This document shows, piece by piece, positions 5,177-18,937 of a stretch of DNA of 64,000 bases. The stretch's first letter is position 1. Each line of letters opens with the position of its first letter. The notes below the pieces were generated by a model. That model saw nothing but the letters and a program-made list of their open reading frames with translations, was not told where the DNA came from and made no database searches. The translations under genes and the position numbers were made by a program. Source of the stretch: a virus. Where the stretch lies: positions 64,001 to 128,000 of the IMG/VR virus record IMGVR_UViG_3300035670_000028. One strand, 5' to 3'.

Positions 5177-5205
5177 TGTAAATGATGCTCTGGTCAGAGT
5201 ATAAT
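5177..5205 (+). promoter_or_regulatory. TGTAAA-N17-TATAAT promoter, leaderless, for dnaE
   Basis: ATG 5212 lies 6 nt after TATAAT. Confidence 0.7.
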
Positions 5206-5211
5206 TGGATC

Positions 5212-8200
5212 ATGAGCATCATTGATGTTAGGCCTCCCACTCGATTCACTGGTTTACATGCCCACTCAAGTTTCTCAAATTTTGACGGACTTGCATATCC
5301 AAAGTCACACATTGATTTTATCACCTCCGATGCCCAGGGCGGTGACTCCTGGGCGCTGACTGATCACGGCAACGGATCCGGACTCGCCCACGCTCGTTCA
5401 GCCGCTGTCAAGGTGCAGAAGTCAGGAAAGAAGTACCGCCAGCTGTACGGCGTCGAGTTCTACTTCGTTCCCTCCCTCGAGGAGTGGCAGCAGTCCATGG
5501 ACCGCCACCAGCAGTCCATCAAGGACGCAAAGTCCGCCAAGGAGATGCAGGAGATCGCCGAGGAGCCCACAGTCGTCAAGCCTCCCGACGAGGAGGACGA
5601 GCAGGGTGGCCACGTCGTCGAGAACGAGGAGGAGACGAAGGAGTCCAAGCCCGGCAAGCCCGAGTGGAAGAAGTACTACCACCTCGTCGTCGTGGCCAAG
5701 AATCGGGTCGGCCTCGGAAACCTGTTCACCCTCGTCAAGAAGTCGTTCAAGCACGGCTTCTACCGGTTCCCACGCATCGACTTCAAGATGCTCAAGGAGC
5801 ACGGCGAGGGACTCGTGGTGTCGACAGCGTGCGTCGGTGGCCTTGCATCCGGCCTCATCTACAGCGAGTTTCCCGACAGGAAGTTCTCTGAGCTGAGCCC
5901 ATCGCTGTTCACCGGTGAGGCAGCGGAGGCAGCGGTTCGGTCCATTCGAGGCAGGCTCGACAACATGGTGGACCGCTTCGTCGATGCCGTCGGCCGCGAC
6001 AACTTCTTCCTCGAGCTCCAGTTTAACGACCTCCCCGCTCAGCACCTCACGAACAGGTGCCTGATCGACGCGTCCGTCAGGAACGGCATTCCCCTCGTGG
6101 CGACGGCTGACTCCCACTTCCCCTCGCCTGACAAGTGGCAGGCGCGCGAGCTCTACAAGAAGCTCGGGTGGATTGGTGCCAAGCTCGACAAGACCATGCT
6201 CCCCAAGCTGGAGGACATGAAGACGATGCTGTATCCCAAGAACGCCACCCAGATGTGGGACGAGTTCAAGAAGGGCTACGAGCAGCACGACTTCTACCAC
6301 GGTCACGAGGAGCTCGTCCGCGACGCGATCGAGCGGACCCACGACATCGCCTGGGAGAAGTGCGAGGACACGTGGATCGACGTCTCAGGCAAGCTGCCCA
6401 AGTTCGGCACTCCCGAGAAGACGGCATTCTCAATGCTGTCAGACCTCGTGAAGGAGGGCCTCGTTCGCGAGGGTCTCGCTGACAAGCCTGAGTACGTCGC
6501 CCGCGCGAAGGAGGAGCTGTCTGACATCAAGTACCTCGGACACGAGGCATACTTCCTCGCGATGCAGAAGATCTTTCATCGTGCTGAGACACAGACACTG
6601 CTAGGGCCCGGTCGTGGATCGGGTGCAGGTTCACTGGTAAACTTCCTGCTAGGCATTACTCAGATTGACCCTATTCCGTATGGATTGCTGTGGAGCCGAT
6701 TCTTGGGAAGACATCGCTGTCTTCAAAAGGATACACTTGTTCTATCAGAGTCGGGCACAAAACCTATTAGTCGGCTGAATGTGGGTGAAAAAGTCCTCAC
6801 ATCAGGTGGAACATATGAGCGTGTTATTGACAAAGAAGATGATGTAAAGCACGATATTAACGCTCTCATCAAGACGTCCAAAGACAGTTTTTCATGTTCA
6901 CCGAATCATAGATGGCTTGTTAGACGCGATGGCGAAGTGCAAGAAGTGCTAACAACAGACCTCAGAAAAGGTGACAAGCTGCTGTTCATCAAGCAAAAGT
7001 CTCCGTGTGAGTTCGAAGAGGTCGAAATCGATGAAGTGGTCTTTAGTGATAGGCTCGAAGAGTATGTCGATATTGAGGTTGAGAATGACCACACGTTCTT
7101 TGTTTCGACCGCCGGTGACAACTTTGCGCTGACACACAACACTTCTTGGCCTGACATTGACACTGACGCGGGTGATCGCGACGTCCTCATCGACGCAGCC
7201 CGCGACCTATTCGGCGACGATGCCGTCATTCCGGTGTCCAACTTCAACACGCTCAAGCTCAAGTCCCTCATCAAGGACATCGCCAAGTTCTACGACGTTC
7301 CATTCGACGAGGTCAATGCCATGACTGGTCCACTGCAGGACGAGGTGATGGCCTTCGCCAAGGATGAGAACCAGGAGAAGTCCGTCTTCGTCCTCAAGCA
7401 CGAGGACTGCATGAAGTACTCCGAGGGGTACCGCAACTTCATGGAGAAGTATCCTGATGTTGCGGCGCATGTTGAGACCCTCTTCATGGAGAACCGCTCC
7501 ATCGGTCGACACGCCGGCGGCGTCATTATCGCTCCCGCCGAGGACCTCGAGCGGACAATGCCCATCATCAGTGTCCGCGGTGAGCTGCAGACCCCGTGGA
7601 CCGAGGGCATGAACTTCAGAAACCTTGAGGACAACGGCTTCCTAAAGTTCGACTTCCTCGGCCTCACGCTGCTCAAGGACGTCGAGAACTGCATCGCCCG
7701 AATCCTCAAGCGGCAGGGCAACCCGCGGCCCACGTTCGCGGACGTGAAGGCGTTCTTCGACAAGCACCTTAACTGCAGGTACGTCCTGCAGGACGACCCA
7801 AAGGTCTGGGAGCACGTCTATCACAATGCCCGATTTACAGGCGTATTCCAGTTCACTGCCGCGGGAGCCCGAAAGTTCTGCCTCGACGCGAAGCCGAGCT
7901 CAATCGAGGAGCTGGCGGCACTCACTGCGATCTACCGACCTGGTCCCCTCAAGGCGAACGTCCACAGGAAGTATGTCGAGGCGAAGAATAACGCCTCGCT
8001 CATCAAGTACGAGCACCCCGTGATCGAGAAGGTGCTCGGGCCTTCCTACAACTTCGTCGTTTTCCAGGAGCAGTTCATGACCCTGGCAGTCGAGCTAGCT
8101 GGATTCTCCCCCGGTGAGTCCGATCAGCTTCGAAAGACCCTGGTCAAGAAGTCCCTTGACACGATCGGCAAGAAGGGCGACGAGCGGGAGGCGGCCCGAC

Positions 8201-9279
8201 AGAAGTTCATCAAGGGCGCCAAGGAGCTCCACGGCGTCCCGGAGGACATCACTTCCGCCCTGTGGTCGACGATCGAAGCATTCTCGGTCTACGGCTTCAA
8301 CAAGTCACACGCTGTCGCCTACGCGATTGACTCCTACTACGCGGCGTGGCTTCACACCCACTACGAGACTGACTGGCTGGCCACGATCCTGCAGTCCGAG
8401 AACGGCAACCCCGACGGCCTCAAGAAGGCTATCACTGAGATCAAGGCGTACGGCTACCGGTTCCAGGAGGCAGACATTAACTACTCAGGCGATGTATGGA
8501 ACTACTCCGAGGAGCTGGAGGCCTTCGTGCCGCCCCTCTCCTCCATCAAGGGTGTTGGTGACACTGCCATGCAGGAGATCATGCACAATCGTCCGTACAA
8601 GTCGCTGGACGACCTGCTCTACGATCCCGACGGCGAGTGGCGGCACTCCAAGGTGAACAAGACAGCCCTTCGTGCCCTGTGCATGATCGAGGCACTGGGG
8701 TCACTGCAGGAGCTCAAGGACGGCACGATCCGAAACCACAGGCAGCTGCTGGCAATCCTCAGCGACGACAAGAACTACGAGACCCTGCGCAAGGGCAAGT
8801 GGGGCATGACCAAGTCCCAGGTTAAGAAGGCGCTGAAGGACGGCGGCGATCTCGCCACAATCACGACCCGCCTGATCGAGCAGTACCACGGCCTGCCCGA
8901 CTGGACGCGGACTGAGAAGATCATGAACCACGTGGAGATGACCTCGGACGCACCGCAGGACCTCGTGTTCCCGGCGGGCTTCGTCAAGCGTGTGACCGAG
9001 AAGGACGTGCCCTCAGTCTTCACGATCCCTGGTGGAGGCAAGGGTGTGGGCTGGTTCTGCGCCGCAGAGTCCATCCAGAAGACGACCAAGAAGGGCAAGG
9101 CGTTCCTGCGAATCCGCGCGATCGACAGCGACAACAACTCAGGGTGGATCCGCGTGTGGGGCAAGTTCGAGCAGCTTCCTGAGCCTTATACGCTGTGGAT
9201 CGGTGAGGTGGATAATGATGCGAACTGGGGCATGGCAACCACCTCGTGGAAGCTCAAGCAGATCAAGGCTTTCGAGTGA
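5212..9279 (+). CDS. dnaE: DNA polymerase III alpha subunit (C-family) with intein
   Basis: PHP motifs LHAHS/ALTDHG/GVEFY/TADSH; GRGSGAGS; PDIDTD; HAGGV; LKFDFLGL; YRPGP; YGFNKSHA; C-terminal OB fold. ORF track start is 5182, probable start 5212. Confidence 0.97.
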   Translation: MSIIDVRPPTRFTGLHAHSSFSNFDGLAYPKSHIDFITSDAQGGDSWALTDHGNGSGLAHARSAAVKVQKSGKKYRQLYGVEFYFVPSLEEWQQSMDRHQQSIKDAKSAKEMQEIAEEPTVVKPPDEEDEQGGHVVENEEETKESKPGKPEWKKYYHLVVVAKNRVGLGNLFTLVKKSFKHGFYRFPRIDFKMLKEHGEGLVVSTACVGGLASGLIYSEFPDRKFSELSPSLFTGEAAEAAVRSIRGRLDNMVDRFVDAVGRDNFFLELQFNDLPAQHLTNRCLIDASVRNGIPLVATADSHFPSPDKWQARELYKKLGWIGAKLDKTMLPKLEDMKTMLYPKNATQMWDEFKKGYEQHDFYHGHEELVRDAIERTHDIAWEKCEDTWIDVSGKLPKFGTPEKTAFSMLSDLVKEGLVREGLADKPEYVARAKEELSDIKYLGHEAYFLAMQKIFHRAETQTLLGPGRGSGAGSLVNFLLGITQIDPIPYGLLWSRFLGRHRCLQKDTLVLSESGTKPISRLNVGEKVLTSGGTYERVIDKEDDVKHDINALIKTSKDSFSCSPNHRWLVRRDGEVQEVLTTDLRKGDKLLFIKQKSPCEFEEVEIDEVVFSDRLEEYVDIEVENDHTFFVSTAGDNFALTHNTSWPDIDTDAGDRDVLIDAARDLFGDDAVIPVSNFNTLKLKSLIKDIAKFYDVPFDEVNAMTGPLQDEVMAFAKDENQEKSVFVLKHEDCMKYSEGYRNFMEKYPDVAAHVETLFMENRSIGRHAGGVIIAPAEDLERTMPIISVRGELQTPWTEGMNFRNLEDNGFLKFDFLGLTLLKDVENCIARILKRQGNPRPTFADVKAFFDKHLNCRYVLQDDPKVWEHVYHNARFTGVFQFTAAGARKFCLDAKPSSIEELAALTAIYRPGPLKANVHRKYVEAKNNASLIKYEHPVIEKVLGPSYNFVVFQEQFMTLAVELAGFSPGESDQLRKTLVKKSLDTIGKKGDEREAARQKFIKGAKELHGVPEDITSALWSTIEAFSVYGFNKSHAVAYAIDSYYAAWLHTHYETDWLATILQSENGNPDGLKKAITEIKAYGYRFQEADINYSGDVWNYSEELEAFVPPLSSIKGVGDTAMQEIMHNRPYKSLDDLLYDPDGEWRHSKVNKTALRALCMIEALGSLQELKDGTIRNHRQLLAILSDDKNYETLRKGKWGMTKSQVKKALKDGGDLATITTRLIEQYHGLPDWTRTEKIMNHVEMTSDAPQDLVFPAGFVKRVTEKDVPSVFTIPGGGKGVGWFCAAESIQKTTKKGKAFLRIRAIDSDNNSGWIRVWGKFEQLPEPYTLWIGEVDNDANWGMATTSWKLKQIKAFE
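6718..7140 (+). mobile_element. Mini-intein (141 aa) in dnaE, no homing endonuclease
   Basis: N-terminal CLQKDTLV, block B CSPNHRW, block F YVDIEVENDHTF, C-terminal THN followed by Thr+1; removal restores RFLGRHR-TSWPDIDTD. Confidence 0.93.
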
Positions 9280-9294
9280 TGATAAAGAGTTTCT

Positions 9295-9546
9295 ATGAAG
9301 TGCTATATCACCAAGTATGATGTGTCCGCTAAGCACATGTGCAAGAATCCCTACGACATATGGGTGCCCCGGCTTGTACAACACGAGTTGGCACCTGTAG
9401 GAATGGGATCTGCTGTGTACACCCCTCTCCCTGTGGGCACTATAGCGCTGCTGATCGATACGAAGAACATGCCAGGCAAGTGCATATACCTCTCAGGCGG
9501 TTTCACCGTGGAGCTGCATGATTCAGATTTGGAGCCCCTATCATGA
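9295..9546 (+). CDS. Hypothetical protein
   Basis: Ends LHDSDLEPL like other SH3-type ORFs. Confidence 0.6.
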   Translation: MKCYITKYDVSAKHMCKNPYDIWVPRLVQHELAPVGMGSAVYTPLPVGTIALLIDTKNMPGKCIYLSGGFTVELHDSDLEPLS

Positions 9547-9872
9547 GAAAGAAGGATCCTGTGGATCTGTGCGCAGGTGATCTCGCCTGGATCTGGTCCG
9601 CAACCGGCCCCCTCGCTGCCCTGGTTGTTGATATCGATCCCAGCAAGGAGGCACAAACATACTACCTCCTCTCCTGCCCGGACCGAGAGCCTGAGTGGCT
9701 CCCTGAATCGATGGTGTTCTCCTCACCGGAGGCCGTAACCCACCCCTGGCAGGCCCGGCAGGTATACCCATCCCTGATCGCCAATGAGATCGTATCCGTG
9801 CAGCCAATGCCCCAGGGCTGCCTCCCATTCTACCTCGATGAGGTCGAGCGCAGGGTTAAGGAAGATGAGTGA
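9543..9872 (+). CDS. SH3-like protein fused to a major-capsid (gp23 Gol-region-like) peptide
   Basis: LCAGDLAW N-terminus; RQVYPSLIANEIVSVQPM..G..FYLD. Confidence 0.65.
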   Translation: MRKKDPVDLCAGDLAWIWSATGPLAALVVDIDPSKEAQTYYLLSCPDREPEWLPESMVFSSPEAVTHPWQARQVYPSLIANEIVSVQPMPQGCLPFYLDEVERRVKEDE

Positions 9873-10177
9873 TGCTTAAAGTAGGTAAGCTCTATTCTTG
9901 CTCTAGATACTTTCTCCTGATCTATCCAGATAAGAAAACTGCCGCCTCCGCCGCTCTCCGATCCCGAGCCGCCGCCCCAGCCTCAGTCGTCGCAGGTTCC
10001 GCCTCTTATTGGAGTAAGCAGTTTGATAAGCCTGTAAGCTATTGCGAACCGGAAACTCCTCTTCTTGTTCTTGCAGTAGAGGAAAAATATGTTGAGGTTC
10101 TGGCAGGAGATCAAAAAGGTTGGATTATCAATAAGGACCGGTTGAATATTAAGGAGATTACCGATGATGCCGCTTGA
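9869..10177 (+). CDS. SH3-like protein with Ala-rich variable insert (paralog 1)
   Basis: LKVGKLYSCS; highly similar to 10164..10466. Confidence 0.75.
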   Translation: MMLKVGKLYSCSRYFLLIYPDKKTAASAALRSRAAAPASVVAGSASYWSKQFDKPVSYCEPETPLLVLAVEEKYVEVLAGDQKGWIINKDRLNIKEITDDAA

Positions 10178-10466
10178 AGTAGGTAAACTCTATTCTTGCT
10201 CTAAATACTTCCTTATGCTTTATCCAGATAGGGAAACCGCCACCCACGCCGCCGCCGCCCACGCCGCCGCCCACGACGCCGAGCGCCATGCCGCTTATTG
10301 GACAAAGAAACTCCAAAAGCCTGTAAGTTTTTGCAATCCCGAAACTCCTCTCCTTGTTCTTGCAGTAGAGGAAAAATATGTTGAGGTTCTTGCGGGAGAT
10401 AAAGTTGGCTGGGCTATTTGTCAGGATTGGTTAGAACTTAAGGAGATTGTTCATGAAGCGGCTTAA
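10164..10466 (+). CDS. SH3-like protein with Ala-rich variable insert (paralog 2)
   Basis: PETPLLVLAVEEKYVEVLAGD is identical in both copies. Confidence 0.75.
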   Translation: MMPLEVGKLYSCSKYFLMLYPDRETATHAAAAHAAAHDAERHAAYWTKKLQKPVSFCNPETPLLVLAVEEKYVEVLAGDKVGWAICQDWLELKEIVHEAA

Positions 10467-10635
10467 TCTATTTGGCTTCACCCTGTTCCGCGAGGAGCGG
10501 GGCGTGATCAGCCCAGGCCCGTGTTGGGTTTGCTTCTACGATTGCTACAGCTACATGCACGCGGATGAGAGCCTGCCCGGGCTCATTTGGAGCCTGATCG
10601 CGGAGTTCAGGGATGACCGGCACCTGGTTGGATGA
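10453..10635 (+). CDS. Hypothetical protein
   Basis: AGGAG RBS then ATG 10453. Confidence 0.55.
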   Translation: MKRLNLFGFTLFREERGVISPGPCWVCFYDCYSYMHADESLPGLIWSLIAEFRDDRHLVG

Positions 10636-10915
10636 TATGTGGCTGAACGATCCAGATCAGCTGCGCCCGGGCCGGCTCTACGAGTGGCAGAAGAGAACCG
10701 TTCAGTGCTGGGTGCCTTGGTTCGATGAGATCGATAGGGGGAAGAACACCCACACCCAGAATGCAGTTGATGGGCCCCCGAATGGATCCGCACTAGTGTA
10801 CATAGGTAAGGGCCGCGAGGGCAGGCAGATAACTGGCTACTCGTTCCTCGTTCCAAACCGAGGCGTGCTAACTGTGTTCAACAGTGATGTTGTTTATGGG
10901 CTGAGAGAAATTTAA
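10613..10915 (+). CDS. Hypothetical protein
   Basis: LRPGRLY motif; start uncertain. Confidence 0.55.
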   Translation: MTGTWLDDMWLNDPDQLRPGRLYEWQKRTVQCWVPWFDEIDRGKNTHTQNAVDGPPNGSALVYIGKGREGRQITGYSFLVPNRGVLTVFNSDVVYGLREI

Positions 10916-10922
10916 TAAGGAG

Positions 10923-11375
10923 ATGAAAATGACACCTGAACAGTTCGTGTATTGGCTCCAGGGTTTCCTGGAGGTGAGCGGGGCGAGTGAGATGAATGAG
11001 CAGCAGTTGAGGATCGTGCGCGATCACCTCGAGCTCGTGCTGAGCAAGAGAACTCCGGCATATGTGCAGCACGCCCAACCTGCCCCTATTGCCAAGTGGG
11101 AAACGGTTTCCGGCTTTCAGGGCACATATCCCACCGGCCCCAAGTGCGGAACGTGCGGTGTGGTGTGCTCGGATGAGGGTGGCACCTGCAGGAAGTGCCG
11201 CTCGGCTTCGAAGAGCCGCCTGGTGCACTGTGATGCCTGCGGGGAGCAGCGCCTCGAGGGGGAGCTCACAGGTATCAGCACTGAGAACCTGGCCGGTGTG
11301 GTGATCTGCAGCGTGTGTAAGAGTAAGTCGAAGAAGCTGCCCATCCTCGATGTTCCTCTGCACCTGACCTGCTGA
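10923..11375 (+). CDS. Zn-ribbon protein with phage-type TPEQFxYWLQG N-terminus
   Basis: Four CxxC pairs; AAGGAG RBS. Confidence 0.65.
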   Translation: MKMTPEQFVYWLQGFLEVSGASEMNEQQLRIVRDHLELVLSKRTPAYVQHAQPAPIAKWETVSGFQGTYPTGPKCGTCGVVCSDEGGTCRKCRSASKSRLVHCDACGEQRLEGELTGISTENLAGVVICSVCKSKSKKLPILDVPLHLTC

Positions 11376-11382
11376 GGCGCAT

Positions 11383-11679
11383 GTGAACCCCGTAATCTCT
11401 GTCTCTGGGAATCAGCTCGGTACGAGGACGAGCAAGACGAGTGAACAGGATCTCTCGCCAGGCACCCTCGTTCAGACCCATGTGTCTGACAAGTGGATGT
11501 CGAAGCAGTACTGGGATGCCACAGAGAGCGAGTGGGTGGAACTTAATGTGGGCACTGTTGCCATGATCATTGACGTGAACGAGATGAACATCAAGTTTCT
11601 CGCCAAAGATCGAGTGTTCAGCATTCACAATTGCTATGCCTCCGAGACAGGAGTGCCCTTGTGGTGCAAGGCGCTGTAA
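11383..11679 (+). CDS. Hypothetical protein
   Basis: LSPGTLV motif. Confidence 0.55.
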   Translation: MNPVISVSGNQLGTRTSKTSEQDLSPGTLVQTHVSDKWMSKQYWDATESEWVELNVGTVAMIIDVNEMNIKFLAKDRVFSIHNCYASETGVPLWCKAL

Positions 11680-11703
11680 ATTCTATGACCATTGAGCTAT
11701 TAT
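11675..11703 (+). promoter_or_regulatory. TGTAAA-N17-TATTAT promoter
   Basis: Upstream of GGAG RBS and ATG 11728. Confidence 0.6.
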
Positions 11704-11727
11704 TACGACAGAACGCATCGGAGACAT

Positions 11728-12663
11728 ATGCTTCAAATCAGGAACGTAACGCTAGAGGGTCCGGACTGCAGTGGTAAGTCGACCCTCTATAACAACATTC
11801 ACAAGGCGAGCAAGTTCAGGTGGAACATCCAGGACCGATCGCAGCTCAGCATGCTGTGCTACGCCCGACAGTTCGGTCGCGGTGACAGTGAGGTGGAGCG
11901 GTGGCGGCGCGAGCTCAGGTCCTTCCTCCTCGACCTGAACAACCGCCTCATTGTGCTGCTTCCGGACTTCCAGGTGATCGCGCAGCGGCTTTCCGAGCGT
12001 GGGGATGATGTTCAGGACATTCAGAGCCTGAAGACGCTGCACAGCATCTTCGAGGAGGAGGTGACCCGCCTAGGAAATCCTCCCAACCTCCTCGTGTTTC
12101 GAGAGGCGCTTCCGGTGGAGCAGCTCAGAGACGCGTGCGTCAAGTGGCTTAGCATGGCCGAGCTCCTCCAGCCGCTCGGTGCAGCACGCGAGGTGCTCGC
12201 CCTCGCGGAGTCCATGCCCAACCGCGAGGCAGTGGGGTGCAGGTTTCGCCTGACACTCGACCCAACGTCGCTGTCTGTGCCCGATGCCTCCATTCTCAGA
12301 CACCCACCCGAGGAGGTCTACTACGCGAAGATCCTATCAGGTGTCCTGCAGAATATTGATGATGAGCTCAAGGGCAAGAATGAGTACGGAGTGAAGCAGA
12401 ACCAGTATTACACTCGTCGCTTCATCTTCACGCAGGACTCTTGCATCTCTCTCGTTCACACAATTCTCAGGGGCGACAACCTAAACATGCGAGTGTATTG
12501 TCGCTCCTCCAACGCGAAGGACGTGTTCAGCTACGATGTGCAGTTCATCTGCTACCTGTTTAGCAGGATCTACGCTCGACTCGCCTCGCACAGCGGCTGG
12601 TCCTATCCTCCTCGCGGAAACTTCACCGTCGACGTGGAGCTCGGCTCCGCCCACGTGCTCTGA
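11728..12663 (+). CDS. Fusion of dNMP (thymidylate-like) kinase and thymidylate-synthase/dCMP-hydroxymethylase-like domain
   Basis: P-loop LEGPDCSGKST and DRS; C-terminal SCISLVH...YCRSSN...YD and GSAH motifs. Confidence 0.7.
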   Translation: MLQIRNVTLEGPDCSGKSTLYNNIHKASKFRWNIQDRSQLSMLCYARQFGRGDSEVERWRRELRSFLLDLNNRLIVLLPDFQVIAQRLSERGDDVQDIQSLKTLHSIFEEEVTRLGNPPNLLVFREALPVEQLRDACVKWLSMAELLQPLGAAREVLALAESMPNREAVGCRFRLTLDPTSLSVPDASILRHPPEEVYYAKILSGVLQNIDDELKGKNEYGVKQNQYYTRRFIFTQDSCISLVHTILRGDNLNMRVYCRSSNAKDVFSYDVQFICYLFSRIYARLASHSGWSYPPRGNFTVDVELGSAHVL

Positions 12664-12668
12664 GGACT

Positions 12669-13460
12669 ATGACTATCAACCTAGAGAATCGCGACTGCCT
12701 CGAGTATCTGGCCTCGCTGCCTGATGAGTCCATTGACATCGCACTACTTGATCCGCCCTACTTCATTGGCCACGACTCATGGGACAAGCAGTGGCCCACT
12801 GAGGAGAAGTACATGAAGTGGTGCGAGGCGTGGACTCGAGAGTCCGTTCGAGTCCTGCGCAGGAATCGCCCCATCTGCGTCTGGGGCACGATGAAGACTG
12901 ACACCTTCCTGCGGTACAAGCTCAACGTGCTCAACAAGGTCCCAGGCATCTACCCGCAGAATGAGATCGTGTGGTCCTACAACTGGGGCGGCAGGTCCAA
13001 GGGCAACTTCGCCCGAAAGCACGAGTACATGTGGGTGTACAGCAAGGGAGAGCTTCACTTCAACGCCGACGATGTCCGCATCGAGAGGAAGCAGAAGGTG
13101 AACATCAGGACGGGTCAGCCGTTTGCCCAGGGCACAATTCCCACCTGCGTGTGGGAGAAGAACAACCACACGACCTCTAAGGAGTACTGCGCGTGGCACA
13201 CGGCGCAGAAGCCCATCTCCCTGCTCGAGCGCATCATCAGGGCGTACACCAATCCGGGTGAGACAGTGATGGACTGCTTCAGTGGCGCGGGCTCCACAAT
13301 GATCGCCGCCCACAATGTGGGCCGCAACTTCACAGGCACCGAGCTGTACAGGGACTACTACGAGCAGTCGAAGGATCGATTTAAGACTCTCACAGGCTCA
13401 TCCGTGCTTGACTCAAAGGACTCAGCGCCCGGGGCGCAATATTTAACGGAGGAGACATGA
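12669..13460 (+). CDS. DNA methyltransferase, N6-A/N4-C beta class
   Basis: DPPY motif IV, HxxQKP, DCFSGAGST motif I. Confidence 0.92.
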   Translation: MTINLENRDCLEYLASLPDESIDIALLDPPYFIGHDSWDKQWPTEEKYMKWCEAWTRESVRVLRRNRPICVWGTMKTDTFLRYKLNVLNKVPGIYPQNEIVWSYNWGGRSKGNFARKHEYMWVYSKGELHFNADDVRIERKQKVNIRTGQPFAQGTIPTCVWEKNNHTTSKEYCAWHTAQKPISLLERIIRAYTNPGETVMDCFSGAGSTMIAAHNVGRNFTGTELYRDYYEQSKDRFKTLTGSSVLDSKDSAPGAQYLTEET

Positions 13461-14026
13461 GCAAGATGACGCAGCGGGATCCGGAGTTCATAATGTTCGT
13501 CGGGCCCATGTTCGGCTCGAAGACTTCAAGACTTCTTGCCACAGTCGAGCGCTATCGCTACCAGAGCAGGGGCATCCTCGTGTTCAAGCCGAGGATGGAC
13601 AATCGGTATGAGAGCGAGAAGATCGTCACCCACACGGGACTCAGCGTCAGTGCCCAGTGTGTGGGATACGGTCGTGAGATCATCGAGCAGGTCCTCGCGG
13701 CTCCCGACTGTGAGGTAGTTGCCGTGGACGAGGCGTTCATGATCGAGGGATCGGCCGAGGCTTGCCTGTCTCTGTTCAGGCGTGGCAAGACGATCGTGGT
13801 GTCGTCCATTCAGCTCTCAGCCTCAGGACTTCCATTCGACGAGGTGAAGGACATGATGCCCTACGCCACGCGGATCGAGGTGTGCTCGGCGGTCTGCCCA
13901 ATCACGGGCAGGGACGCCTACTACACAGAGAGAAAGAGGAGCGACCTTGGCGAGATTGCAGTGGGCGGCAAGGAGATGTACTCACCCGTCTGCTGGGAGC
14001 ACGCCAAGTTTATGCGAGGAGTGTGA
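13457..14026 (+). CDS. tdk: Thymidine kinase
   Basis: GPMFGSKT, FKP..DNRY, VDEA, VGGKEMYSPVC. Confidence 0.9.
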   Translation: MSKMTQRDPEFIMFVGPMFGSKTSRLLATVERYRYQSRGILVFKPRMDNRYESEKIVTHTGLSVSAQCVGYGREIIEQVLAAPDCEVVAVDEAFMIEGSAEACLSLFRRGKTIVVSSIQLSASGLPFDEVKDMMPYATRIEVCSAVCPITGRDAYYTERKRSDLGEIAVGGKEMYSPVCWEHAKFMRGV

Positions 14027-14027
14027 T

Positions 14028-14864
14028 ATGGGAATGGATCCTTCGTCGGTCAACTGTGTCATCTACCACGGAGGGTGCACGGACGGGTTCGGTGCAGCAT
14101 TCTCCGCCTGGAAGTGCCTAGGAAACAGGGCCGAGTACTACGCCTGCAAGCACGGTGAGTCCCCTCCTGATGTTCGAGGAAAGAACGTCGTGATCCTGGA
14201 CTTTTCCTACGACAATGCGACGACGAAGAGGCTGATCTCTGAGGCCGCATCACTGCTCGTGATCGACCACCACAAGTCCGCGATGGTCGAGCTCCACGAT
14301 GTGAGCAACACGCACTTCGATATGAACCACTCGGGCGCCCGGCTCTCGTGGGACTTCTTCCACCCAGGGCACCCACCTCCCAAGCTCATCAACTACATCG
14401 AGGACCGTGACCTGTGGAAGTGGGAGCTGCCCTACTCGAAGGAGTTCAGTGCTGCCTTCGACATGGTGCCCTTCGAGTTTGAGGAGTTCGAGAAGTACGA
14501 GGACGACTCGGTCTTCGACGACGCTGTGAAGCGGGGATCCTACATCCTCGCCTACTCCAAGACCGTGATCAAGAAGGTGTGCGAGAAGGCGGCACTGAGG
14601 CGCTACCAGGGCATGGAGGTGATGGTGGTCAACTCCTCACACTGGATGTCCGAGATCGGAAATAGGCTCTCGCACGACTGTGACTTTGCGGTGATATGGT
14701 ACTACGACCACGAGGACCGCAAGAACAAGGTGAGCCTCCGCGCCTTCCACGACAACGTCGACGTCTCAGAGATCGCGAAGCGGTTCGGCGGCGGCGGCCA
14801 CAAGAAGGCTGCGGGATTTGCTCTGCCTGACGGAAAGCACATCGAGGAGATCTTCGACGTCTGA
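14028..14864 (+). CDS. DHH/DHHA1 phosphoesterase (NrnB-like)
   Basis: YH..CTDG, DFS, DHH, SGA, DRDLW, SLR, GGGHKKAAG. Confidence 0.9.
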   Translation: MGMDPSSVNCVIYHGGCTDGFGAAFSAWKCLGNRAEYYACKHGESPPDVRGKNVVILDFSYDNATTKRLISEAASLLVIDHHKSAMVELHDVSNTHFDMNHSGARLSWDFFHPGHPPPKLINYIEDRDLWKWELPYSKEFSAAFDMVPFEFEEFEKYEDDSVFDDAVKRGSYILAYSKTVIKKVCEKAALRRYQGMEVMVVNSSHWMSEIGNRLSHDCDFAVIWYYDHEDRKNKVSLRAFHDNVDVSEIAKRFGGGGHKKAAGFALPDGKHIEEIFDV

Positions 14865-14882
14865 GCTTCATATTTACCAGAC

Positions 14883-15728
14883 ATGAGACCCAGAGTGCTT
14901 GAGGAGTGCATTGTCGTAGGTGGTGCCCTTAAGGGCGACAACTTCCTAGCCAAGTCCAGGGACCGCAACTACACGCCCCATGTGACGATATACCGTGAGC
15001 TGCTCGACAGCGGCATCGAGATCGTCTACATGCACGACGAGGACACCGACTACATGGAGGGCATGAACTCCGAGGGCATCGGCATCGTCAATGCGGCGCT
15101 GCTTGTCGGAGATGATGAGAAAGCGGTCAAGGGCAAGATCAAGTCCACCGACGGCAAGATCATGCGCGCTGCCCTAGAGTGCACAGACCTCAGGACCTGC
15201 ATTCAGACGCTCATCTCCACCGGCGGCGGCATCAAGGGCCACACGCTGGTCGGAAACAGTGACACCCTCTACACGATTGAGATGACGTCCAAGCACAATC
15301 CCGTCATCAACAAGGTGAAGGACACCTCGAAGACCCAGGTGAGGACCAACCACGGCCTCAAGCACGCCGGCGCCGGCTACACGGTTGATCGAAAGCCAGA
15401 CGACTACCTGAGCTCAAAGATCAGGCAGGCGACCGCCGAGGTCCAGGTCGCAGGCGCGGAGGACATCGGTGAGATCGCGCCGTCGCTCGCCCGCCAGACA
15501 TTCGATCCTGAGTCCAACTACAACATGAACCGCAAGACGGACAACATGTCTACCACCTCTCAGTGCGCGATGAACCTCTCCAAGCGCCACTTCAACTTCT
15601 ACTTCTTCCCCACACACTGCGAGTTCAACGGTGTGGTGGACAAGACCCCTGAGGACTACGACCCCCGAGTGAAGATCAACGTCTACAGGTACAAGACTCC
15701 GGGCAGAAAAGGCCTGAGCCTAAAGTAA
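14883..15728 (+). CDS. Ntn-hydrolase (C45/acyltransferase-like)
   Basis: Near-N-terminal Cys (LEE-CIVV), AKSRDR, EGMNSEGIGI, RTNH. Confidence 0.75.
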   Translation: MRPRVLEECIVVGGALKGDNFLAKSRDRNYTPHVTIYRELLDSGIEIVYMHDEDTDYMEGMNSEGIGIVNAALLVGDDEKAVKGKIKSTDGKIMRAALECTDLRTCIQTLISTGGGIKGHTLVGNSDTLYTIEMTSKHNPVINKVKDTSKTQVRTNHGLKHAGAGYTVDRKPDDYLSSKIRQATAEVQVAGAEDIGEIAPSLARQTFDPESNYNMNRKTDNMSTTSQCAMNLSKRHFNFYFFPTHCEFNGVVDKTPEDYDPRVKINVYRYKTPGRKGLSLK

Positions 15729-15752
15729 AAACTGCAGCTCCCAGGCTATAAT
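15724..15752 (+). promoter_or_regulatory. AGTAAA-N17-TATAAT promoter, leaderless
   Basis: ATG 15759 lies 6 nt after TATAAT. Confidence 0.65.
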
Positions 15753-15758
15753 GCCTCC

Positions 15759-16187
15759 ATGAGCGAGCGACCCACGTGGGACAGCGTCTGGATGGACACT
15801 GCCCGAACAATCTCACGCCGATCCTACGACCCACGACACCAGGTGGGGGCCATCGTGGTGACATCAGACAATACCCAGGTGCTCTCCGTTGGCTACAACG
15901 GTAATTACACAGGGGGCCCAAATGAGGTTGAATCTGCGAACCCTGGGGAGTCCGGAATGATACACAGCGAGATCAACGCGCTGCTGAAGATGGACTACAA
16001 CAACCCGAAGCGCAAGGTGATGTACGTCACATTGAGCCCTTGCCGTATGTGCGCGAAGGCGATCGTCAACGCCGGGATCAGCGAGGTCGTGTACGGCGAG
16101 GAGTACAGGGACGCCTCCGGCCTGGATATACTGCGGTCCGCAGGAGTGACAGTGAGGCCTATCAACGAGCCTTCAACTGGGTCGTGA
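15759..16187 (+). CDS. dCMP deaminase (ComEB/DCTD family)
   Basis: RPTWD, QVGA, GYNG, HSEINA, PCRMC. Confidence 0.92.
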   Translation: MSERPTWDSVWMDTARTISRRSYDPRHQVGAIVVTSDNTQVLSVGYNGNYTGGPNEVESANPGESGMIHSEINALLKMDYNNPKRKVMYVTLSPCRMCAKAIVNAGISEVVYGEEYRDASGLDILRSAGVTVRPINEPSTGS

Positions 16188-16231
16188 GCGAGATACCTAT
16201 AGATAGCATTGCGCCTATTGCAGAGAACGAC

Positions 16232-17822: not shown

Positions 17823-18242
17823 ATGGCAAAGCTGAATGAGTCAAAGATCGTTGAGGCCATGCGCCTCGCCTATCTCCGGAGGCTCCACGAGGTGATCGGT
17901 GAGACCGACGTGAAGGACAAGAGGGGTAATGTGGTGATCTCTCCCGGTCTCAAGGTCCGTCACAAGAAGTCACAGTTCGAGTACACTGTGTCATCTGTGA
18001 AGGAGGATCCGAAGTCAGGCGACGTGGTGATCACTCTCAAGAGCCCTGAGATGCCGCGTTTCACGCCTTCCGGTGGGCAGGAGTTCGTGGGCGAGGAGAC
18101 ACCTCTACTGACAGGCGCCGCTCCTACCTCGGGTCACGATGAGGAGCTCGCAGCAATGGCTCAGCCGGACGCTGTCGAGGGCGAGGAGACCGTCTTCATG
18201 GTGGATGAGAAGGAGTTCAAGAAGGACTACGAGGTGAAGTGA
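17823..18242 (+). CDS. Hypothetical (probably virion) protein
   Basis: LNE N-terminus; PGLKVRHK. Confidence 0.65.
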   Translation: MAKLNESKIVEAMRLAYLRRLHEVIGETDVKDKRGNVVISPGLKVRHKKSQFEYTVSSVKEDPKSGDVVITLKSPEMPRFTPSGGQEFVGEETPLLTGAAPTSGHDEELAAMAQPDAVEGEETVFMVDEKEFKKDYEVK

Positions 18243-18937
18243 TGCACATCGACGACGACATCAAGAAGGAGATCCGCCGCTCCCTAGGCCTTCCGGAGCG
18301 GAGGGCAGAGTCAAAGATCAATGAGGCGTACGTTGTTGAGCCCAAGTCCTACACGCTCAAGACCGACTTCCTGAGCGACAAGGCGAAGAAGGCCCGCATC
18401 GACGACTTCAGCGCGAACGCCAAGTCACTAAACGCTGTGAGCGCGAAGCTGGACACCGCCTCAAGGGACGATGCGGACGACCGCTCCTCGGAGTTCAGGT
18501 CGCTCAAGGTCGACGAGGCGCACTGCCTCAATGAGGCCTTCCTCAGGGCGCGCCACTTCGACAACATCGACGATCCCAGGAGCCAGATCTCCATGGACAC
18601 ACTTTCCTTCATGCGCCTCGAGCGGGACTTCGGCGGATTCGACGCGTGGCAGAAGGACTTCATAGCCTGCGGCATGTCGGCACGCAGTGGTTACGTTGTG
18701 ACCGCCTACAACATCCTGCTCGGCAGGTACATGAACCTCGTGGTCGACGCGGGAGGCTGCAACATACCGATCGGATGCATGCCCATCGTTGTTCTCGACG
18801 TCTCAGAGGGCGCGTACTACCGGGACTACATCGGTGATCGCAAGACCTACATCATCGCAATGATGAAGGAGCTCAACTGGGACGTCATCGAGGAGCGCGT
18901 CAAGAAGGCTGAGAGGATCGCGAAGGTGATGGCATGA
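18239..18937 (+). CDS. Degenerate Fe/Mn superoxide-dismutase-fold protein
   Basis: ERDFGGFDAW..DF, PIVVLDVSEGAYYRDY, NWDVIEER; metal His ligands missing. Confidence 0.75.
   Translation: MMHIDDDIKKEIRRSLGLPERRAESKINEAYVVEPKSYTLKTDFLSDKAKKARIDDFSANAKSLNAVSAKLDTASRDDADDRSSEFRSLKVDEAHCLNEAFLRARHFDNIDDPRSQISMDTLSFMRLERDFGGFDAWQKDFIACGMSARSGYVVTAYNILLGRYMNLVVDAGGCNIPIGCMPIVVLDVSEGAYYRDYIGDRKTYIIAMMKELNWDVIEERVKKAERIAKVMA

What the first reader, a model, noticed from the sequence alone, without database searches (positions are those of the whole stretch)
11728..12663. dNMP-kinase/thymidylate-synthase-like fusion with cytosine-type specificity residue
Seen: the C-terminal domain has a catalytic-type Cys (SCISLVH), RSSNAKDVFSYD and GSAH. 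Established: ThyA has RSxD.......N (E. coli Asn177 selects dUMP), while T4 dCMP hydroxymethylase has Asp at that position and a GSLH motif. The aligned residue here is Asp and the conserved RSxD Asp is Asn. Inference: the enzyme makes a modified dCMP (methyl, hydroxymethyl or hydroxy) and channels it through the fused kinase. It heads an operon with an MTase, Tdk and a DHH phosphoesterase. DUF1599-like and cytidylyltransferase genes (50768-51597) could add a further modification. A link to the GAC/GTC depletion is possible but unproven.
Basis: partly seen in the sequence, partly recalled or inferred. Interest (0 to 1): 0.7.

Follow-up and report, generated by a model that had tools for sequence, protein, structure and literature searches.

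The report
Kinase fused to minimal cytosine-type TS domain
An uncultured freshwater jumbo phage encodes a nucleotide kinase fused to a stripped-down thymidylate-synthase-like domain with a cytosine-selecting active site, so it probably makes and phosphorylates a modified dCMP (most likely 5-hydroxy-dCMP), and the same fusion sits next to the DNA polymerase gene in every related viral locus examined (79 of 79).

Summary
Window 11728-12663 (+) encodes a 311-aa protein with two domains.

- **Residues 1-148:** a P-loop kinase of the YorR/thymidylate-kinase type (VIA Z 14.4).
- **Residues 149-311:** a thymidylate-synthase (TS) fold domain. AF2 pLDDT is 93.5. The seven best chains in an unbiased PDB scan are all TS family (Z 8.4-10.5), and the next hit is 5.5.

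Ungapped profile alignments place C239 on the catalytic Cys, R259/S260 on E. coli R166/S167, N262 on D169 and D270 on N177. The last is Asp in dCMP enzymes.

The best structural match is the flavin-dependent dCMP 5-hydroxylase AfhB (9iqu/9iqc). D169N plus N177D is the published signature of 5-hydroxy-dCMP synthases.

Three cautions apply:
- Residue 262 is N in 82 and D in 66 of 163 family members, and it flips often on the tree.
- The domain has about 160 aa and lacks the folate-binding subdomain and the C-terminal tail.
- Profile comparison places it equally far from hydroxylases and hydroxymethylases.

The fusion is constant across about 200 metagenomic clusters. It follows PolIII-alpha in 79 of 79 loci and is absent from 50,697 GenBank phage records.

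Verdict: a new fused, minimal variant of the dCMP-modifying TS family. The product is unproven; I favour 5-hydroxy-dCMP at about 40%.

The scan noted this same stretch once before, in an overlapping window.

The parts
11728..12663 (+). Whole gene: 311-aa kinase/mini-TS fusion (stop at 12661-12663)
   Evidence: ORF list. GGAG lies 5-8 nt upstream of the ATG. 90 full-length homologues start at the same place.
11728..12171 (+). N-terminal P-loop nucleotide kinase domain (residues 1-148), YorR/thymidylate-kinase type
   Evidence: phmmer and profile search against PDB match YorR 2axp/3kb2 at E 7.9e-10. VIA Z 14.4, rmsd 2.7, 140 residues aligned. Weak Pfam Thymidylate_kin and AAA hits, and PHROG 761 'thymidylate kinase' at E 7.8e-8.
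11755..11784 (+). P-loop EGPDCSGKST (E10-T19)
   Evidence: G16 and K17 are kept in 156/163 members.
11833..11838 (+). D36-R37 ('DR' substrate-site motif of TMPK/dNK-type kinases)
   Evidence: D is kept in 156/163 and R in 159/163. The motif's role is assigned from general knowledge of the kinase family.
11998..12006 (+). R91-G92-D93 (lid-region RGD, shared with YorR 'RGDE')
   Evidence: R is kept in 160/163 and D in 160/163.
12172..12660 (+). C-terminal minimal thymidylate-synthase-fold domain (residues 149-311)
   Evidence: AF2 of residues 146-311 gives pLDDT 93.5. In VIA wide the top 7 chains are all TS family (9iqc Z 10.5 with 139 aligned, Brucella ThyA 9.7, MilA 9.2, T4 dCH 8.4) and the next hit is 5.5. 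In Foldseek all listed hits are TS family, with AfhB 9iqu at the top (E 3.8e-7).
12310..12324 (+). E195-E-V-Y198-Y199: family-invariant Glu and Tyr pair at the start of the long helix
   Evidence: E195 is kept in 157/163, Y198 in 151/163 and Y199 in 153/163. The role is not assigned; a Glu58-like or ring-stacking function is inference only.
12415..12420 (+). R230-R231, equivalent to the ThyA R126/R127 pair that reaches into the partner subunit's active site
   Evidence: hhalign aligns them to the SRR of RB69 gp48. They are kept in 156 and 154 of 163 members. In the predicted homodimer, residues 85/86 (= 230/231) touch residues 114/115 and 161/162 (= 259/260, 306/307) of the other copy.
12442..12444 (+). 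C239, the candidate catalytic nucleophile (E. coli C146, T4 C148)
   Evidence: Kept in 156/163 members.
12502..12513 (+). R259-S260-S261-N262 (E. coli R166-S167-C168-D169); N262 is the 'D169N' position
   Evidence: R is kept in 156/163 and S in 157/163. Position 262 is N in 82, D in 66, E in 6 and H in 4.
12535..12537 (+). D270, at the base-specificity position (E. coli N177, T4 D179)
   Evidence: Ungapped alignment to T4 dCH and to RB69 gp48. Kept in 159/163 members.
12646..12654 (+). S307-A308-H309 (E. coli D205-T206-H207); the protein ends 2 residues later
   Evidence: H is kept in 157/163 members. The SAH motif is shared with RB69 gp48, Ac42 p077 and RHph_I34, whereas the hmC-type enzymes have GSLH.
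5182..9279 (+). PolIII-alpha replicative polymerase, the conserved upstream neighbour
   Evidence: Local HMM score 1979. PolIII-alpha is the upstream marker in 79/79 related loci. Pfam domains are seen in the relatives.
12669..13460 (+). N6_N4 DNA methyltransferase, 5 nt downstream of the fusion gene
   Evidence: PF01555 at E 6.2e-43. It was found in 0/80 related loci, where this slot usually holds an SDR sugar-nucleotide epimerase.
13457..14026 (+). Thymidine kinase (start overlaps the MTase stop)
   Evidence: PF00265 at E 2.7e-32. Present in 65/80 loci.
14025..14864 (+). DHH/DHHA1 phosphoesterase (start overlaps the TK stop)
   Evidence: PHROG 4771 at E 3e-75 and DHHA1 at E 2.4e-10. Present in 50/80 loci.
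15759..16187 (+). dCMP deaminase
   Evidence: PF00383 at E 5.9e-22 and PHROG 174 at E 7e-49. Present in 67/80 loci.

Best explanation
The gene encodes a bifunctional enzyme of deoxypyrimidine metabolism.

**C-terminal domain.** This is a homodimeric, minimal thymidylate-synthase-fold enzyme. It binds a cytosine mononucleotide, most likely dCMP, which D270 pairs with in place of the Asn that selects uracil. C239 attacks C6 of the base and so activates C5 for substitution. The domain has lost the folate-binding helical subdomain and the C-terminal tail. Its closest structural relative is the flavin/O2-dependent dCMP 5-hydroxylase AfhB (= RB69 gp48 type). The most likely product is therefore 5-hydroxy-dCMP.

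**N-terminal domain.** This YorR/TMPK-like kinase handles the same nucleotide. It most likely phosphorylates the modified dCMP to the diphosphate. Alternatively, it makes dCMP from deoxycytidine upstream of the TS-like step. Either way the product can reach the triphosphate pool and be used by the phage PolIII-alpha encoded just upstream.

**Wider pathway.** With the gp56-like NTP pyrophosphatase, dCMP deaminase, ThyX, dUTPase and thymidine kinase of the same genome, the layout parallels the T4 scheme (gp56, gp42, gp1, cd, td, tk), with the gp42 and gp1 roles fused into one protein.

**Shown here:** the fold, the residue equivalences, their conservation, the predicted TS-like dimer and the synteny.

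**Inferred:** the substrate (about 75%), C5 modification as the reaction (about 65%), hydroxylation as the chemistry (about 40%), the order of the two activities, and incorporation into DNA.

The confidence given (0.55) is for the general statement, a C5-modifying dCMP enzyme fused to a kinase acting on the same nucleotide. It is not for the specific product.
For: - **Fold.** The full-length AF2 model has pLDDT 93.8 and pTM 0.90. The C-terminal domain alone has pLDDT 93.5. An unbiased VIA scan of 48,161 chains gives TS family in the top 7 (Z 10.5-8.4, 136-142 of 166 residues aligned), followed by a gap to 5.5. Foldseek puts AfhB 9iqu first, both for the full-length model and for the domain alone.
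- **Residue equivalences.** C239=C148(T4), R259/S260, N262=D169(Ec), D270=N177(Ec)=D179(T4), H309=H207 and R230/R231=R126/R127.
- **dCMP-type relatives only.** The only PDB sequences the domain profile finds are dCMP enzymes (T4 dCH at E 1e-3, AfhB at 0.45). No ThyA appears.
- **Conservation.** Both active sites are kept across 163 members: C239 in 156, R259 in 156, S260 in 157, D270 in 159, H309 in 157, and the P-loop G16/K17 in 156.
- **Dimer.** The homodimer is predicted with ipSAE 0.68 against a best control of 0.00. That mark was reached by 20 of 30 solved homodimers and 1 of 23 monomers. The runs share at least 94% of contacts and pLDDT is at least 87. The interface is the beta-sheet, with R230/R231 touching the partner's R259/S260, as in ThyA. 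This may partly reflect the model's memory of solved TS dimers.
- **Literature (PMC13326640).** N177D gives dCMP preference. D169N marks 5-hydroxy-dCMP synthases, and nine diverse D169N homologues all made 5hodC. Those enzymes bind flavin, not folate. A TMPK/YorR-like 'nucleotide kinase' of unassigned role lies beside the synthase in DLP3, RB69 and RL38JI, so the fusion here is Rosetta-stone-type support for that pairing.
- **Shared motif.** The SAH motif and the short tail after it are shared with three 5hoC-type enzymes.
- **dTMP is already covered.** A canonical ThyX is present and no ThyA, so the domain is not needed for dTMP.
- **A separate gp56-like enzyme.** A gp56-like NTP pyrophosphatase is present in addition to a trimeric dUTPase.
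- **Synteny.** PolIII-alpha is upstream in 79/79 loci. A sugar-nucleotide-type SDR epimerase is the next marker downstream in 55 loci.
Against: - Residue 262 (the D169N signature) is N in only 82 of 163 members and D in 66, and it changes at least 36 times on the family tree. The published diagnostic therefore does not behave as a fixed functional determinant in this family.
- Profile-profile scores do not separate the two branches: RB69 gp48 (5hoC type) scores E 6.5e-7 and Serratia PS2 gp42 (annotated dCMP hydroxymethylase) E 1.4e-7. VIA Z values for AfhB, ThyA and MilA differ by about 1.
- The domain is about 70 residues shorter than AfhB or T4 dCH between the first helix and the SAH motif. 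It has a 16-residue deletion just before the catalytic Cys. Whether a flavin site survives is unknown.
- Pfam PF00303 does not match the protein.
- No glycosyltransferase was found in the 147 kb available, which is about 44% of the genome. Only 3 of 80 related loci have one within 10 kb.
- The phage also carries a DNA methyltransferase. According to other notes of this scan it shows GAC/GTC avoidance in some islands, which would be less necessary if every C were hypermodified.
- The kinase's acceptor (nucleoside or nucleotide) is not determined.
- No biochemical or DNA-composition data exist.
Confidence: 0.55

Rival explanations
1. The TS-like domain is a folate-dependent dCMP hydroxymethylase (T4 gp42 type) or dCMP methylase. 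It would make 5-hydroxymethyl- or 5-methyl-dCMP, which the fused kinase then phosphorylates.
For: - By sequence, the best PDB match of the domain profile is T4 dCMP hydroxymethylase (E 1e-3).
- hhalign scores a gp42-type enzyme as high as the hydroxylase (E 1.4e-7 against 6.5e-7).
- 66 of 163 family members carry Asp at the D169 position, as folate enzymes do.
- The residue three before the Cys is polar (Q/S/D/E/N), as in hydroxymethylases according to PMC13326640. This equivalence is uncertain because of the deletion there.
Against: - The region that carries the folate-contacting residues of ThyA (about 66-125, including W80, W83 and Y94) and the C-terminal tail that closes over folate have no counterpart. 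The domain has about 90 residues before the Cys, against 146-163 in ThyA, T4 dCH and RB69 gp48, and only 2 residues after the His.
- This protein has Asn, not Asp, at the D169 position.
- The motif is SAH rather than the GSLH of gp42-type enzymes.
Confidence: 0.2
2. The TS-like domain does not put a substituent on C5. It could be a nucleotide-binding, dimerising or regulatory module for the kinase. Or it could use the Cys-C6 adduct for other chemistry, such as H5 exchange, deamination, or a reaction with an as yet unknown co-substrate. That co-substrate might be supplied by the neighbouring SDR or ThyX-like proteins.
For: - The drastic reduction of the fold removes the known cofactor site.
- The D169-equivalent residue is unconstrained.
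- There is no Pfam or PHROG family for the domain.
- An SDR enzyme is the usual immediate neighbour, in 55 loci.
- A divergent ThyX-like protein belongs to the same module.
Against: - A purely structural or regulatory role does not explain the near-invariance of the nucleophile Cys, the phosphate-binding Arg and Ser, the specificity Asp and the His across sequences down to 28% identity.
- A separate zinc dCMP deaminase is already encoded three genes downstream.
Confidence: 0.2
3. The protein is an ordinary thymidylate synthase fused to thymidylate kinase, converting dUMP to dTMP to dTDP.
For: Some metagenome pipelines name family members 'thymidylate kinase'. There is a weak Pfam Thymidylate_kin hit. 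The C-terminal domain has the TS fold.
Against: - Asp, not Asn, sits at the uracil/cytosine specificity position in 159/163 members.
- The folate-binding parts are missing.
- The genome already has a canonical ThyX (E 9.8e-49).
- The domain profile finds no ThyA in PDB.
Confidence: 0.04

Closest known systems
Flavin-dependent dCMP 5-hydroxylase / 5-hydroxy-dCMP synthase (HY126 AfhB, PDB 9iqu/9iqc; RB69 gp48; DLP3 gp80; RL38JI gp216)
   Same: - TS fold, and the top structural hit (Foldseek E 3.8e-7; VIA Z 10.5).
- Catalytic Cys, RS-x-N, the Asp at the N177 position, the SAH motif and a short tail after it.
- A TMPK/YorR-like kinase is associated with the synthase in the known clusters.
   Different: - About 160 aa rather than 217-238 aa, with the helical subdomain and the loop before the Cys deleted.
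- Covalently fused to the kinase.
- The Asn is not conserved in the family.
- No glycosyltransferase or arabinose-nucleotide genes lie beside it.
- Flavin binding and the product are untested.
- Sequence identity is only about 17%.
T4 gp42 dCMP hydroxymethylase (PDB 1b49/1b5d/6a9a)
   Same: - Best sequence-profile match in PDB (E 1e-3), with C148, R168/S169 and D179 aligned without gaps.
- Same overall pathway logic: gp56-like pyrophosphatase, dCMP deaminase and thymidine kinase in the same genome.
   Different: - T4 has Asp at the D169-equivalent position and GSLH in place of GSAH.
- T4 is a full-size, folate-binding protein of 246 aa.
- In T4 the kinase (gp1) is a separate protein of a different family.
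E. coli ThyA-type thymidylate synthase (PF00303)
   Same: Core beta-sheet and helices. Cys nucleophile, Arg/Ser phosphate site, His207 equivalent, and the RR pair from the partner subunit. Predicted beta-sheet homodimer.
   Different: Asp instead of Asn177. No small domain (W80/W83/Y94) and no C-terminal tail. Pfam PF00303 does not score. Not required for dTMP, because ThyX is present.
Bacillus SPbeta prophage YorR (PDB 2axp/3kb2) and thymidylate / deoxynucleoside kinases
   Same: Best match of the N-terminal domain (profile E 7.9e-10; VIA Z 14.4, 140 residues aligned, 24% identity). P-loop, DR and RGD(E) motifs.
   Different: YorR is a stand-alone 173-aa protein of unknown substrate. Here the domain carries a C-terminal TS-fold partner.
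MilA CMP hydroxymethylase (PDB 5jnh/5b6d)
   Same: TS fold with Asp at the specificity position. VIA Z 9.2 with 142 residues aligned.
   Different: MilA is 318 aa, folate-dependent, acts on the ribonucleotide and belongs to antibiotic biosynthesis. Ribo/deoxyribo preference is not determinable here.

Membership tests
Thymidylate synthase superfamily (TS fold) | Alpha/beta TS fold with a central sheet and the long helix J | tested here: met
   In VIA wide the top 7 of 48,161 chains are all TS family, at Z 8.4-10.5 with 136-142 of 166 residues aligned; the next hit is 5.5. Foldseek hits are all TS family.
Thymidylate synthase superfamily (TS fold) | Catalytic Cys nucleophile (Ec C146) | tested here: met
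   C239 aligns to T4 C148 and to the RB69 gp48 Cys. It is kept in 156/163 members.
Thymidylate synthase superfamily (TS fold) | Phosphate site: R166/S167, plus R126'/R127' from the partner subunit of a beta-sheet homodimer | tested here: met
   R259/S260 and R230/R231 are aligned and conserved. The predicted dimer scores ipSAE 0.68 against a control of 0.00, with R230/231 contacting the partner's 259/260. This is a prediction only and may reflect solved TS dimers.
Thymidylate synthase superfamily (TS fold) | Scores above the Pfam PF00303 gathering threshold | tested here: not met
   There is no PF00303 hit at E <= 1 for the protein. RB69 gp48 scores E 2.4e-15 in the same test.
Folate-dependent TS / dCMP hydroxymethylase (ThyA, T4 gp42) | Folate-binding small domain (Ec about 66-125: W80, W83, Y94) and closing C-terminal tail | tested here: not met
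   There are only about 90 residues from the first helix to the Cys, against 146-163 in the full-size enzymes. A 16-residue deletion precedes the Cys. Only 2 residues follow the His. Residue-level absence is inferred from lengths and aligned ranges, not from a superposition.
Folate-dependent TS / dCMP hydroxymethylase (ThyA, T4 gp42) | Asp at Ec position 169 (RSxD) | tested here: not met
   It is N262 in this protein. The family has N in 82, D in 66 and other residues in the rest.
5-hydroxy-dCMP synthase (AfhB / RB69 gp48 type) | Asp at Ec N177 position (dCMP specificity) | tested here: met
   D270 is kept in 159/163 members.
5-hydroxy-dCMP synthase (AfhB / RB69 gp48 type) | Asn at Ec D169 position (diagnostic, per PMC13326640) | tested here: inconclusive
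   The feature is met in this protein (N262). However, it flips N/D at least 36 times across the family tree, so it may not be diagnostic here.
5-hydroxy-dCMP synthase (AfhB / RB69 gp48 type) | Binds flavin and uses O2 to form 5-hydroxy-dCMP | not testable with these tools
   This needs purified protein or expression followed by LC-MS.
5-hydroxy-dCMP synthase (AfhB / RB69 gp48 type) | Embedded in a cluster with DNA glycosyltransferases and NDP-sugar synthesis genes | tested here: inconclusive
   No GT was found in the 147 kb available (about 44% of the genome). A GT lies within 10 kb in 3 of 80 related loci, but a sugar-nucleotide-type SDR epimerase is the next marker downstream in 55.
5-hydroxy-dCMP synthase (AfhB / RB69 gp48 type) | Specific sequence kinship to the hydroxylase branch rather than to other dCMP enzymes | tested here: inconclusive
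   hhalign gives E 6.5e-7 to RB69 gp48 and E 1.4e-7 to a gp42-type enzyme. AfhB is the top structural hit, but by a margin of about 1 Z unit or less.
P-loop dNMP / deoxynucleoside kinase (YorR, TMPK, dNK) | Kinase fold with P-loop GxxGxGK[ST], DR motif and lid Arg | tested here: met
   VIA gives Z 14.4 to YorR, 13.3 to M. mycoides dAK and 12.7 to S. aureus TMPK. The motifs are conserved.
P-loop dNMP / deoxynucleoside kinase (YorR, TMPK, dNK) | Identity of the phosphate acceptor (nucleoside or nucleoside monophosphate; which base) | not testable with these tools
   Structural scores to nucleoside kinases and NMP kinases are tied within about 1.5 Z.

The most novel reading that the evidence does not exclude
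This is a new, folate-independent minimal branch of the thymidylate-synthase fold. In it, the fused kinase (or another partner) replaces the lost cofactor-binding subdomain. It would make a modified cytosine nucleotide: either 5-hydroxy-dCMP as a handle for a new sugar supplied by the adjacent NDP-sugar epimerase, or a C5 substituent not yet described. That nucleotide would replace or supplement C in the DNA of a whole clade of uncultured aquatic jumbo phages that replicate with PolIII-alpha.
Probability: 0.3. Interest if true: 0.8.

Novelty: new variant of a known kind. Interest (0 to 1): 0.62.

Why it matters
Modified pyrimidines in phage DNA are made at the mononucleotide level by TS-fold enzymes. 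They decide how phages escape restriction and CRISPR systems. The hydroxylating, flavin-using branch was described only in 2025-2026.

This family would extend that chemistry in two ways. It would carry it from cultured T4-like and Rhizobium phages to a large, uncultured aquatic clade: 131 IMG/VR contigs and about 200 clusters at 50% identity. It would also show how far the TS fold can be reduced while keeping its nucleotide site.

The natural fusion assigns a partner to the orphan 'nucleotide kinase' genes that sit next to the 5-hydroxy-dCMP synthases of RB69, DLP3 and RL38JI. A 311-aa single-chain enzyme that both modifies and phosphorylates dCMP would also be a convenient tool for making modified DNA.

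If the domain instead proves to be non-catalytic, or to make an ordinary product, the finding reduces to an unusual domain architecture.

Tried and rejected
- **Cultured phages.** tblastn of the protein and of two distant relatives (P0087, P0065) against 50,697 GenBank phage records gave no match. No cultured phage is available for comparison.
- **Stand-alone or differently fused forms.** A region-restricted search and a domain-only profile search returned only fused proteins, start-site variants or fragments. ESM-Atlas and BFVD hint at remote small TS-like viral proteins of 151-184 aa, for example in Synechococcus phage S-CBWM1. I could not fetch or test these.
- **D169N signature as a classifier.** Rejected as decisive after family counts and a tree showed the residue is labile.
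- **Hydroxylase or hydroxymethylase kinship by hhalign.** The scores are tied.
- **Kinase domain against RB69 gp45.** hhalign aligned only the P-loop. The kinases are analogous in context, but specific orthology is not shown.
- **Promoter and terminator scan of 9000-17000.** Nothing above shuffled expectation, so operon boundaries are not defined.
- **Glycosyltransferases.** Pfam scans of about 55 ORFs of the genome, plus local HMMs built from a relative's GT genes, found none.
- **He et al. 2026 (AfhB structure paper).** It is not in the held library, so flavin-contact residues could not be mapped.
- **Model coordinates.** They are not exposed, so I could not superpose residues or inspect how the kinase domain packs on the TS-like active site.
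- **DUF1599 for 50768-51127.** Not reproduced at E <= 0.01.
Full report
**1. What is there**

Window 11728-12663 (+) is a 311-aa ORF with a GGAG 5-8 nt upstream of its ATG.

The window is bases 64001-128000 of a 147-kb IMG/VR viral contig that CheckV rates 44% complete. Other notes of this scan describe it as an uncultured T4-like freshwater jumbo phage. I did not re-test that description.

**2. Two domains**

Pfam and PHROGs see only weak kinase signals in the N-terminal part: AAA_28, Thymidylate_kin, and PHROG 761 'thymidylate kinase' at E 7.8e-8. They see nothing for the C-terminal half.

A search of 5.8 billion proteins found 90 full-length relatives, all about 300 aa with both halves. An exhaustive HMMER scan of 1.84 billion cluster representatives found 206 relatives.

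AlphaFold2 with a 38-sequence alignment gave pLDDT 93.8 and pTM 0.90.

- **Residues 1-148.** These superpose on Bacillus SPbeta YorR (3kb2/2axp) at VIA Z 14.4 (rmsd 2.7, 140 aligned). Deoxyadenosine kinase (13.3) and thymidylate kinases (about 12.7) follow. The profile also matches YorR by sequence (E 7.9e-10).
- **Residues 146-311, folded alone** (pLDDT 93.5). These were scanned against 48,161 PDB representatives without Foldseek prefiltering. The seven best chains are all thymidylate-synthase family:

| Chain | Z | Residues aligned |
|---|---|---|
| 9iqc (flavin monooxygenase with dCMP and FAD) | 10.5 | 139 |
| Brucella ThyA | 9.7 | not recorded |
| MilA | 9.2 | 142 |
| T4 dCMP hydroxymethylase | 8.4 | 142 |
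| eighth-ranked chain | 5.5 | 86 |

All seven TS-family chains align over 136-142 of the 166 residues.

Foldseek agrees, with HY126 AfhB (9iqu, dCMP hydroxylase) first at E 3.8e-7. It is a TS fold.

**3. Residue equivalences**

The family profile matches T4 dCMP hydroxymethylase in PDB (E 1.2e-3) over an ungapped stretch. This places C239 on C148, R259/S260 on R168/S169, N262 on D171 and D270 on D179. C148 and D179 are the catalytic Cys and the specificity Asp of T4 dCH. The latter is the counterpart of E. coli Asn177, whose change to Asp switches preference to dCMP (references in PMC13326640).

hhalign against RB69 gp48, an experimentally verified 5-hydroxy-dCMP synthase, gives the same register (E 6.5e-7). 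It adds R230/R231 = the SRR pair (E. coli R126/R127) and S307-A308-H309 = SAH. The domain profile finds only dCMP-type enzymes in PDB and no ThyA.

Across 163 full-length members (identity down to 28%):

| Residue | Members keeping it (of 163) |
|---|---|
| C239 | 156 |
| R259 | 156 |
| S260 | 157 |
| D270 | 159 |
| H309 | 157 |
| R230 | 156 |
| R231 | 154 |
| Kinase P-loop G16 and K17 | 156 each |
| Kinase D36 | 156 |
| Kinase R37 | 159 |
| Kinase R91 and D93 | 160 each |

Both halves therefore look like working enzymes.

**4. A TS-like dimer**

A homodimer of the C-terminal domain was predicted with ipSAE 0.68 (three runs: 0.62-0.71). The best of three controls scored 0.00. In the tool's calibration, 20 of 30 solved homodimers and 1 of 23 monomers reached the pass mark. 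The runs share at least 94% of contacts and partner pLDDT is at least 87.

The interface is the beta-sheet. R230/R231 of one copy touch R259/S260 and residues 306-307 of the other. This is the shared-active-site geometry of ThyA. Because TS dimers are abundant among solved structures, the result shows likeness and does not prove binding.

**5. What kind of TS-fold enzyme**

Lee et al. (NAR 2026, PMC13326640) showed several things:
- RB69 gp48, DLP3 gp80 and RL38JI gp216 convert dCMP to 5-hydroxy-dCMP.
- These enzymes carry flavin rather than folate, and the oxygen comes from O2.
- They combine N177D with D169N.
- Nine diverse D169N homologues all produced 5hodC.

The protein here has exactly that pair (N262, D270), and its best structural hit is the hydroxylase AfhB. 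It also shares the SAH motif, followed by a very short tail, with RB69 gp48, Acinetobacter phage Ac42 p077 and Rhizobium phage RHph_I34. A gp42-type enzyme has GSLH and a longer tail.

In all three published clusters a TMPK/YorR-like 'nucleotide kinase' of unassigned role lies one to three genes from the synthase. Here the same kind of kinase is fused to the TS-like domain. This is Rosetta-stone-type support for a functional pairing.

**6. Why the product is still open**

- **Residue 262 is not fixed.** It is N in 82, D in 66, E in 6 and H in 4 of 163 members. On a maximum-likelihood tree it changes at least 36 times, against 63 for shuffled labels, including within the clade of this protein.
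- **Profile-profile scores are tied.** RB69 gp48 scores E 6.5e-7 and a gp42-type enzyme E 1.4e-7. VIA Z values for AfhB, ThyA and MilA lie within about 1 unit.
- **The domain is minimal.** It has about 90 residues from the first helix to the Cys, against 146 in ThyA and 163 in RB69 gp48. A 16-residue deletion lies between the RR strand and the Cys. Only two residues follow the His. By length and aligned ranges, it lacks the helical small domain that carries the folate-contacting Trp and Tyr residues of ThyA, and the C-terminal tail. This argues against folate chemistry. It also leaves open whether a flavin site exists, or whether the kinase domain or another protein completes the site.

I could not map flavin contacts. 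The AfhB paper is not held and model coordinates are not exposed.

**7. Genomic context**

The genome has a canonical ThyX (E 9.8e-49) and no ThyA. The domain is therefore not needed for dTMP.

- **Downstream of the fusion** lie an N6_N4 DNA methyltransferase (5-nt gap), a thymidine kinase and a DHH phosphoesterase (overlapping start and stop codons), a C45-like protein and a dCMP deaminase.
- **Upstream, before PolIII-alpha,** lie a gp56-like all-alpha NTP pyrophosphatase, an NT5C-like protein, a divergent ThyX-like protein, a PF05014 protein and an SDR enzyme. The pyrophosphatase hits PF08761 at E 2.4e-5, shows the same two-family Pfam pattern as the RB69 gp56 dCTPase, and matches it by BLASTP at E 1e-4.
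- **A separate trimeric dUTPase** exists, which leaves the gp56-like enzyme free for a dCTPase-type role. This is inference.

In 80 related IMG/VR loci, out of 131 found:
- The gene order is [NTP-PPase][ThyX-like][PF05014][SDR] PolIII-alpha, fusion, SDR, TK, DHH, dCMP deaminase, SOD-like.
- PolIII-alpha is the upstream marker in 79 of 79 loci.
- An SDR is the next marker downstream in 55 loci, starting within 100 nt in 43.
- That downstream SDR resembles NDP-sugar 4-epimerases (TviC/GalE-like, below equivalog cut-offs).
- In this window its slot is taken by the methyltransferase, which occurs in 0 of 80 loci.
- Glycosyltransferase homologues lie within 10 kb in only 3 of 80 loci. None was found in the 147 kb of this genome.

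The context fits a T4-style deoxypyrimidine pathway, with a hint of sugar-nucleotide metabolism. A hypermodification cluster is not demonstrated.

**8. Verdict**

The best reading is a bifunctional enzyme: a homodimeric minimal TS-fold domain that modifies C5 of dCMP, fused to a nucleotide kinase acting on the same nucleotide. The product is most likely 5-hydroxy-dCMP (about 40%). Folate-type hydroxymethylation or methylation stands at about 20%. Another chemistry or a non-catalytic role stands at about 20%.

The family has no Pfam or PHROG model for the C-terminal domain. It has no member among 50,697 GenBank phage records. I found no description of such a fusion in the held literature. It is a new fused, reduced variant of a known kind of enzyme, and not a categorically new system.

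Noticed in passing
outside the window: G000:C1:57401-58381 (= L014:7401-8378): A divergent 326-aa ThyX-like protein (PF02511 E 2.7e-14; TIGR02170 E 1.9e-7, far below cut-off). It shares only a 42-residue, 33%-identical stretch with the canonical ThyX of the same genome (G128822-129574) and has no PDB sequence match. It recurs in 40 of 80 related loci, in the same module as the kinase/mini-TS gene. It could be a second non-canonical pyrimidine-modifying enzyme.
   Followed up: partly
outside the window: G000:C1:55996-56376, 56376-57329, 59428-59901, 60059-61036: A conserved upstream block holds a gp56(dCTPase)-like all-alpha NTP pyrophosphatase, an NT5C-like 317-aa protein, a PF05014 nucleoside 2-deoxyribosyltransferase-like protein and an SDR (dTDP-glucose dehydratase/RmlD-like, weak match). 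An island of about 8 kb of small genes separates this block from PolIII-alpha in this genome.
   Followed up: partly
window 12669-13460: An N6_N4 DNA methyltransferase (DPPY motif) sits exactly where 55 related loci carry a TviC/GalE-like SDR epimerase. It was found in none of the 80 related loci, so it looks like a recent replacement.
   Followed up: partly
window 18239-18937: A protein with only the C-terminal domain of Fe/Mn superoxide dismutase (PF02777 E 2.8e-14) is conserved downstream of the dCMP deaminase in 57 of 80 related loci. A link to oxygen/flavin chemistry is speculation.
   Followed up: no
window 14883-15728: A 281-aa C45/Ntn-hydrolase-like protein (NCBIfam NF040521 E 1.1e-9, below cut-off; no Pfam or PHROG hit) is inserted between the DHH phosphoesterase and the dCMP deaminase. 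It is absent from that position in the five relatives inspected gene by gene.
   Followed up: no
window 5182-9279: PolIII-alpha is 1365 aa, against about 1190-1210 aa in several relatives. Its translation contains a Hint/intein-like insert. Two relatives (L009, L010) have the polymerase split or carrying 'Intein_splicing' hits.
   Followed up: no
window 45912-46955, 34659-36296, 38601-39284: Auxiliary genes typical of large aquatic phages: a GMP reductase/IMPDH-family protein (E 3e-105), a GroEL-type chaperonin (E 5.5e-68) and a peptide deformylase (E 2.2e-43).
   Followed up: no
BFVD hits A0A3G1L3Q7 (Synechococcus phage S-CBWM1, 151 aa), W8CQ29 (174 aa), A0A4Y5NYD2 (169 aa): Small stand-alone viral proteins with a TS-like core (Foldseek E 5e-4 to 7e-3, TM about 0.5) suggest that minimal TS-fold proteins exist outside this fused family. 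ESM-Atlas also lists viral clusters of about 184 aa in which PF00303 is present in 18-38% of members.
   Followed up: no
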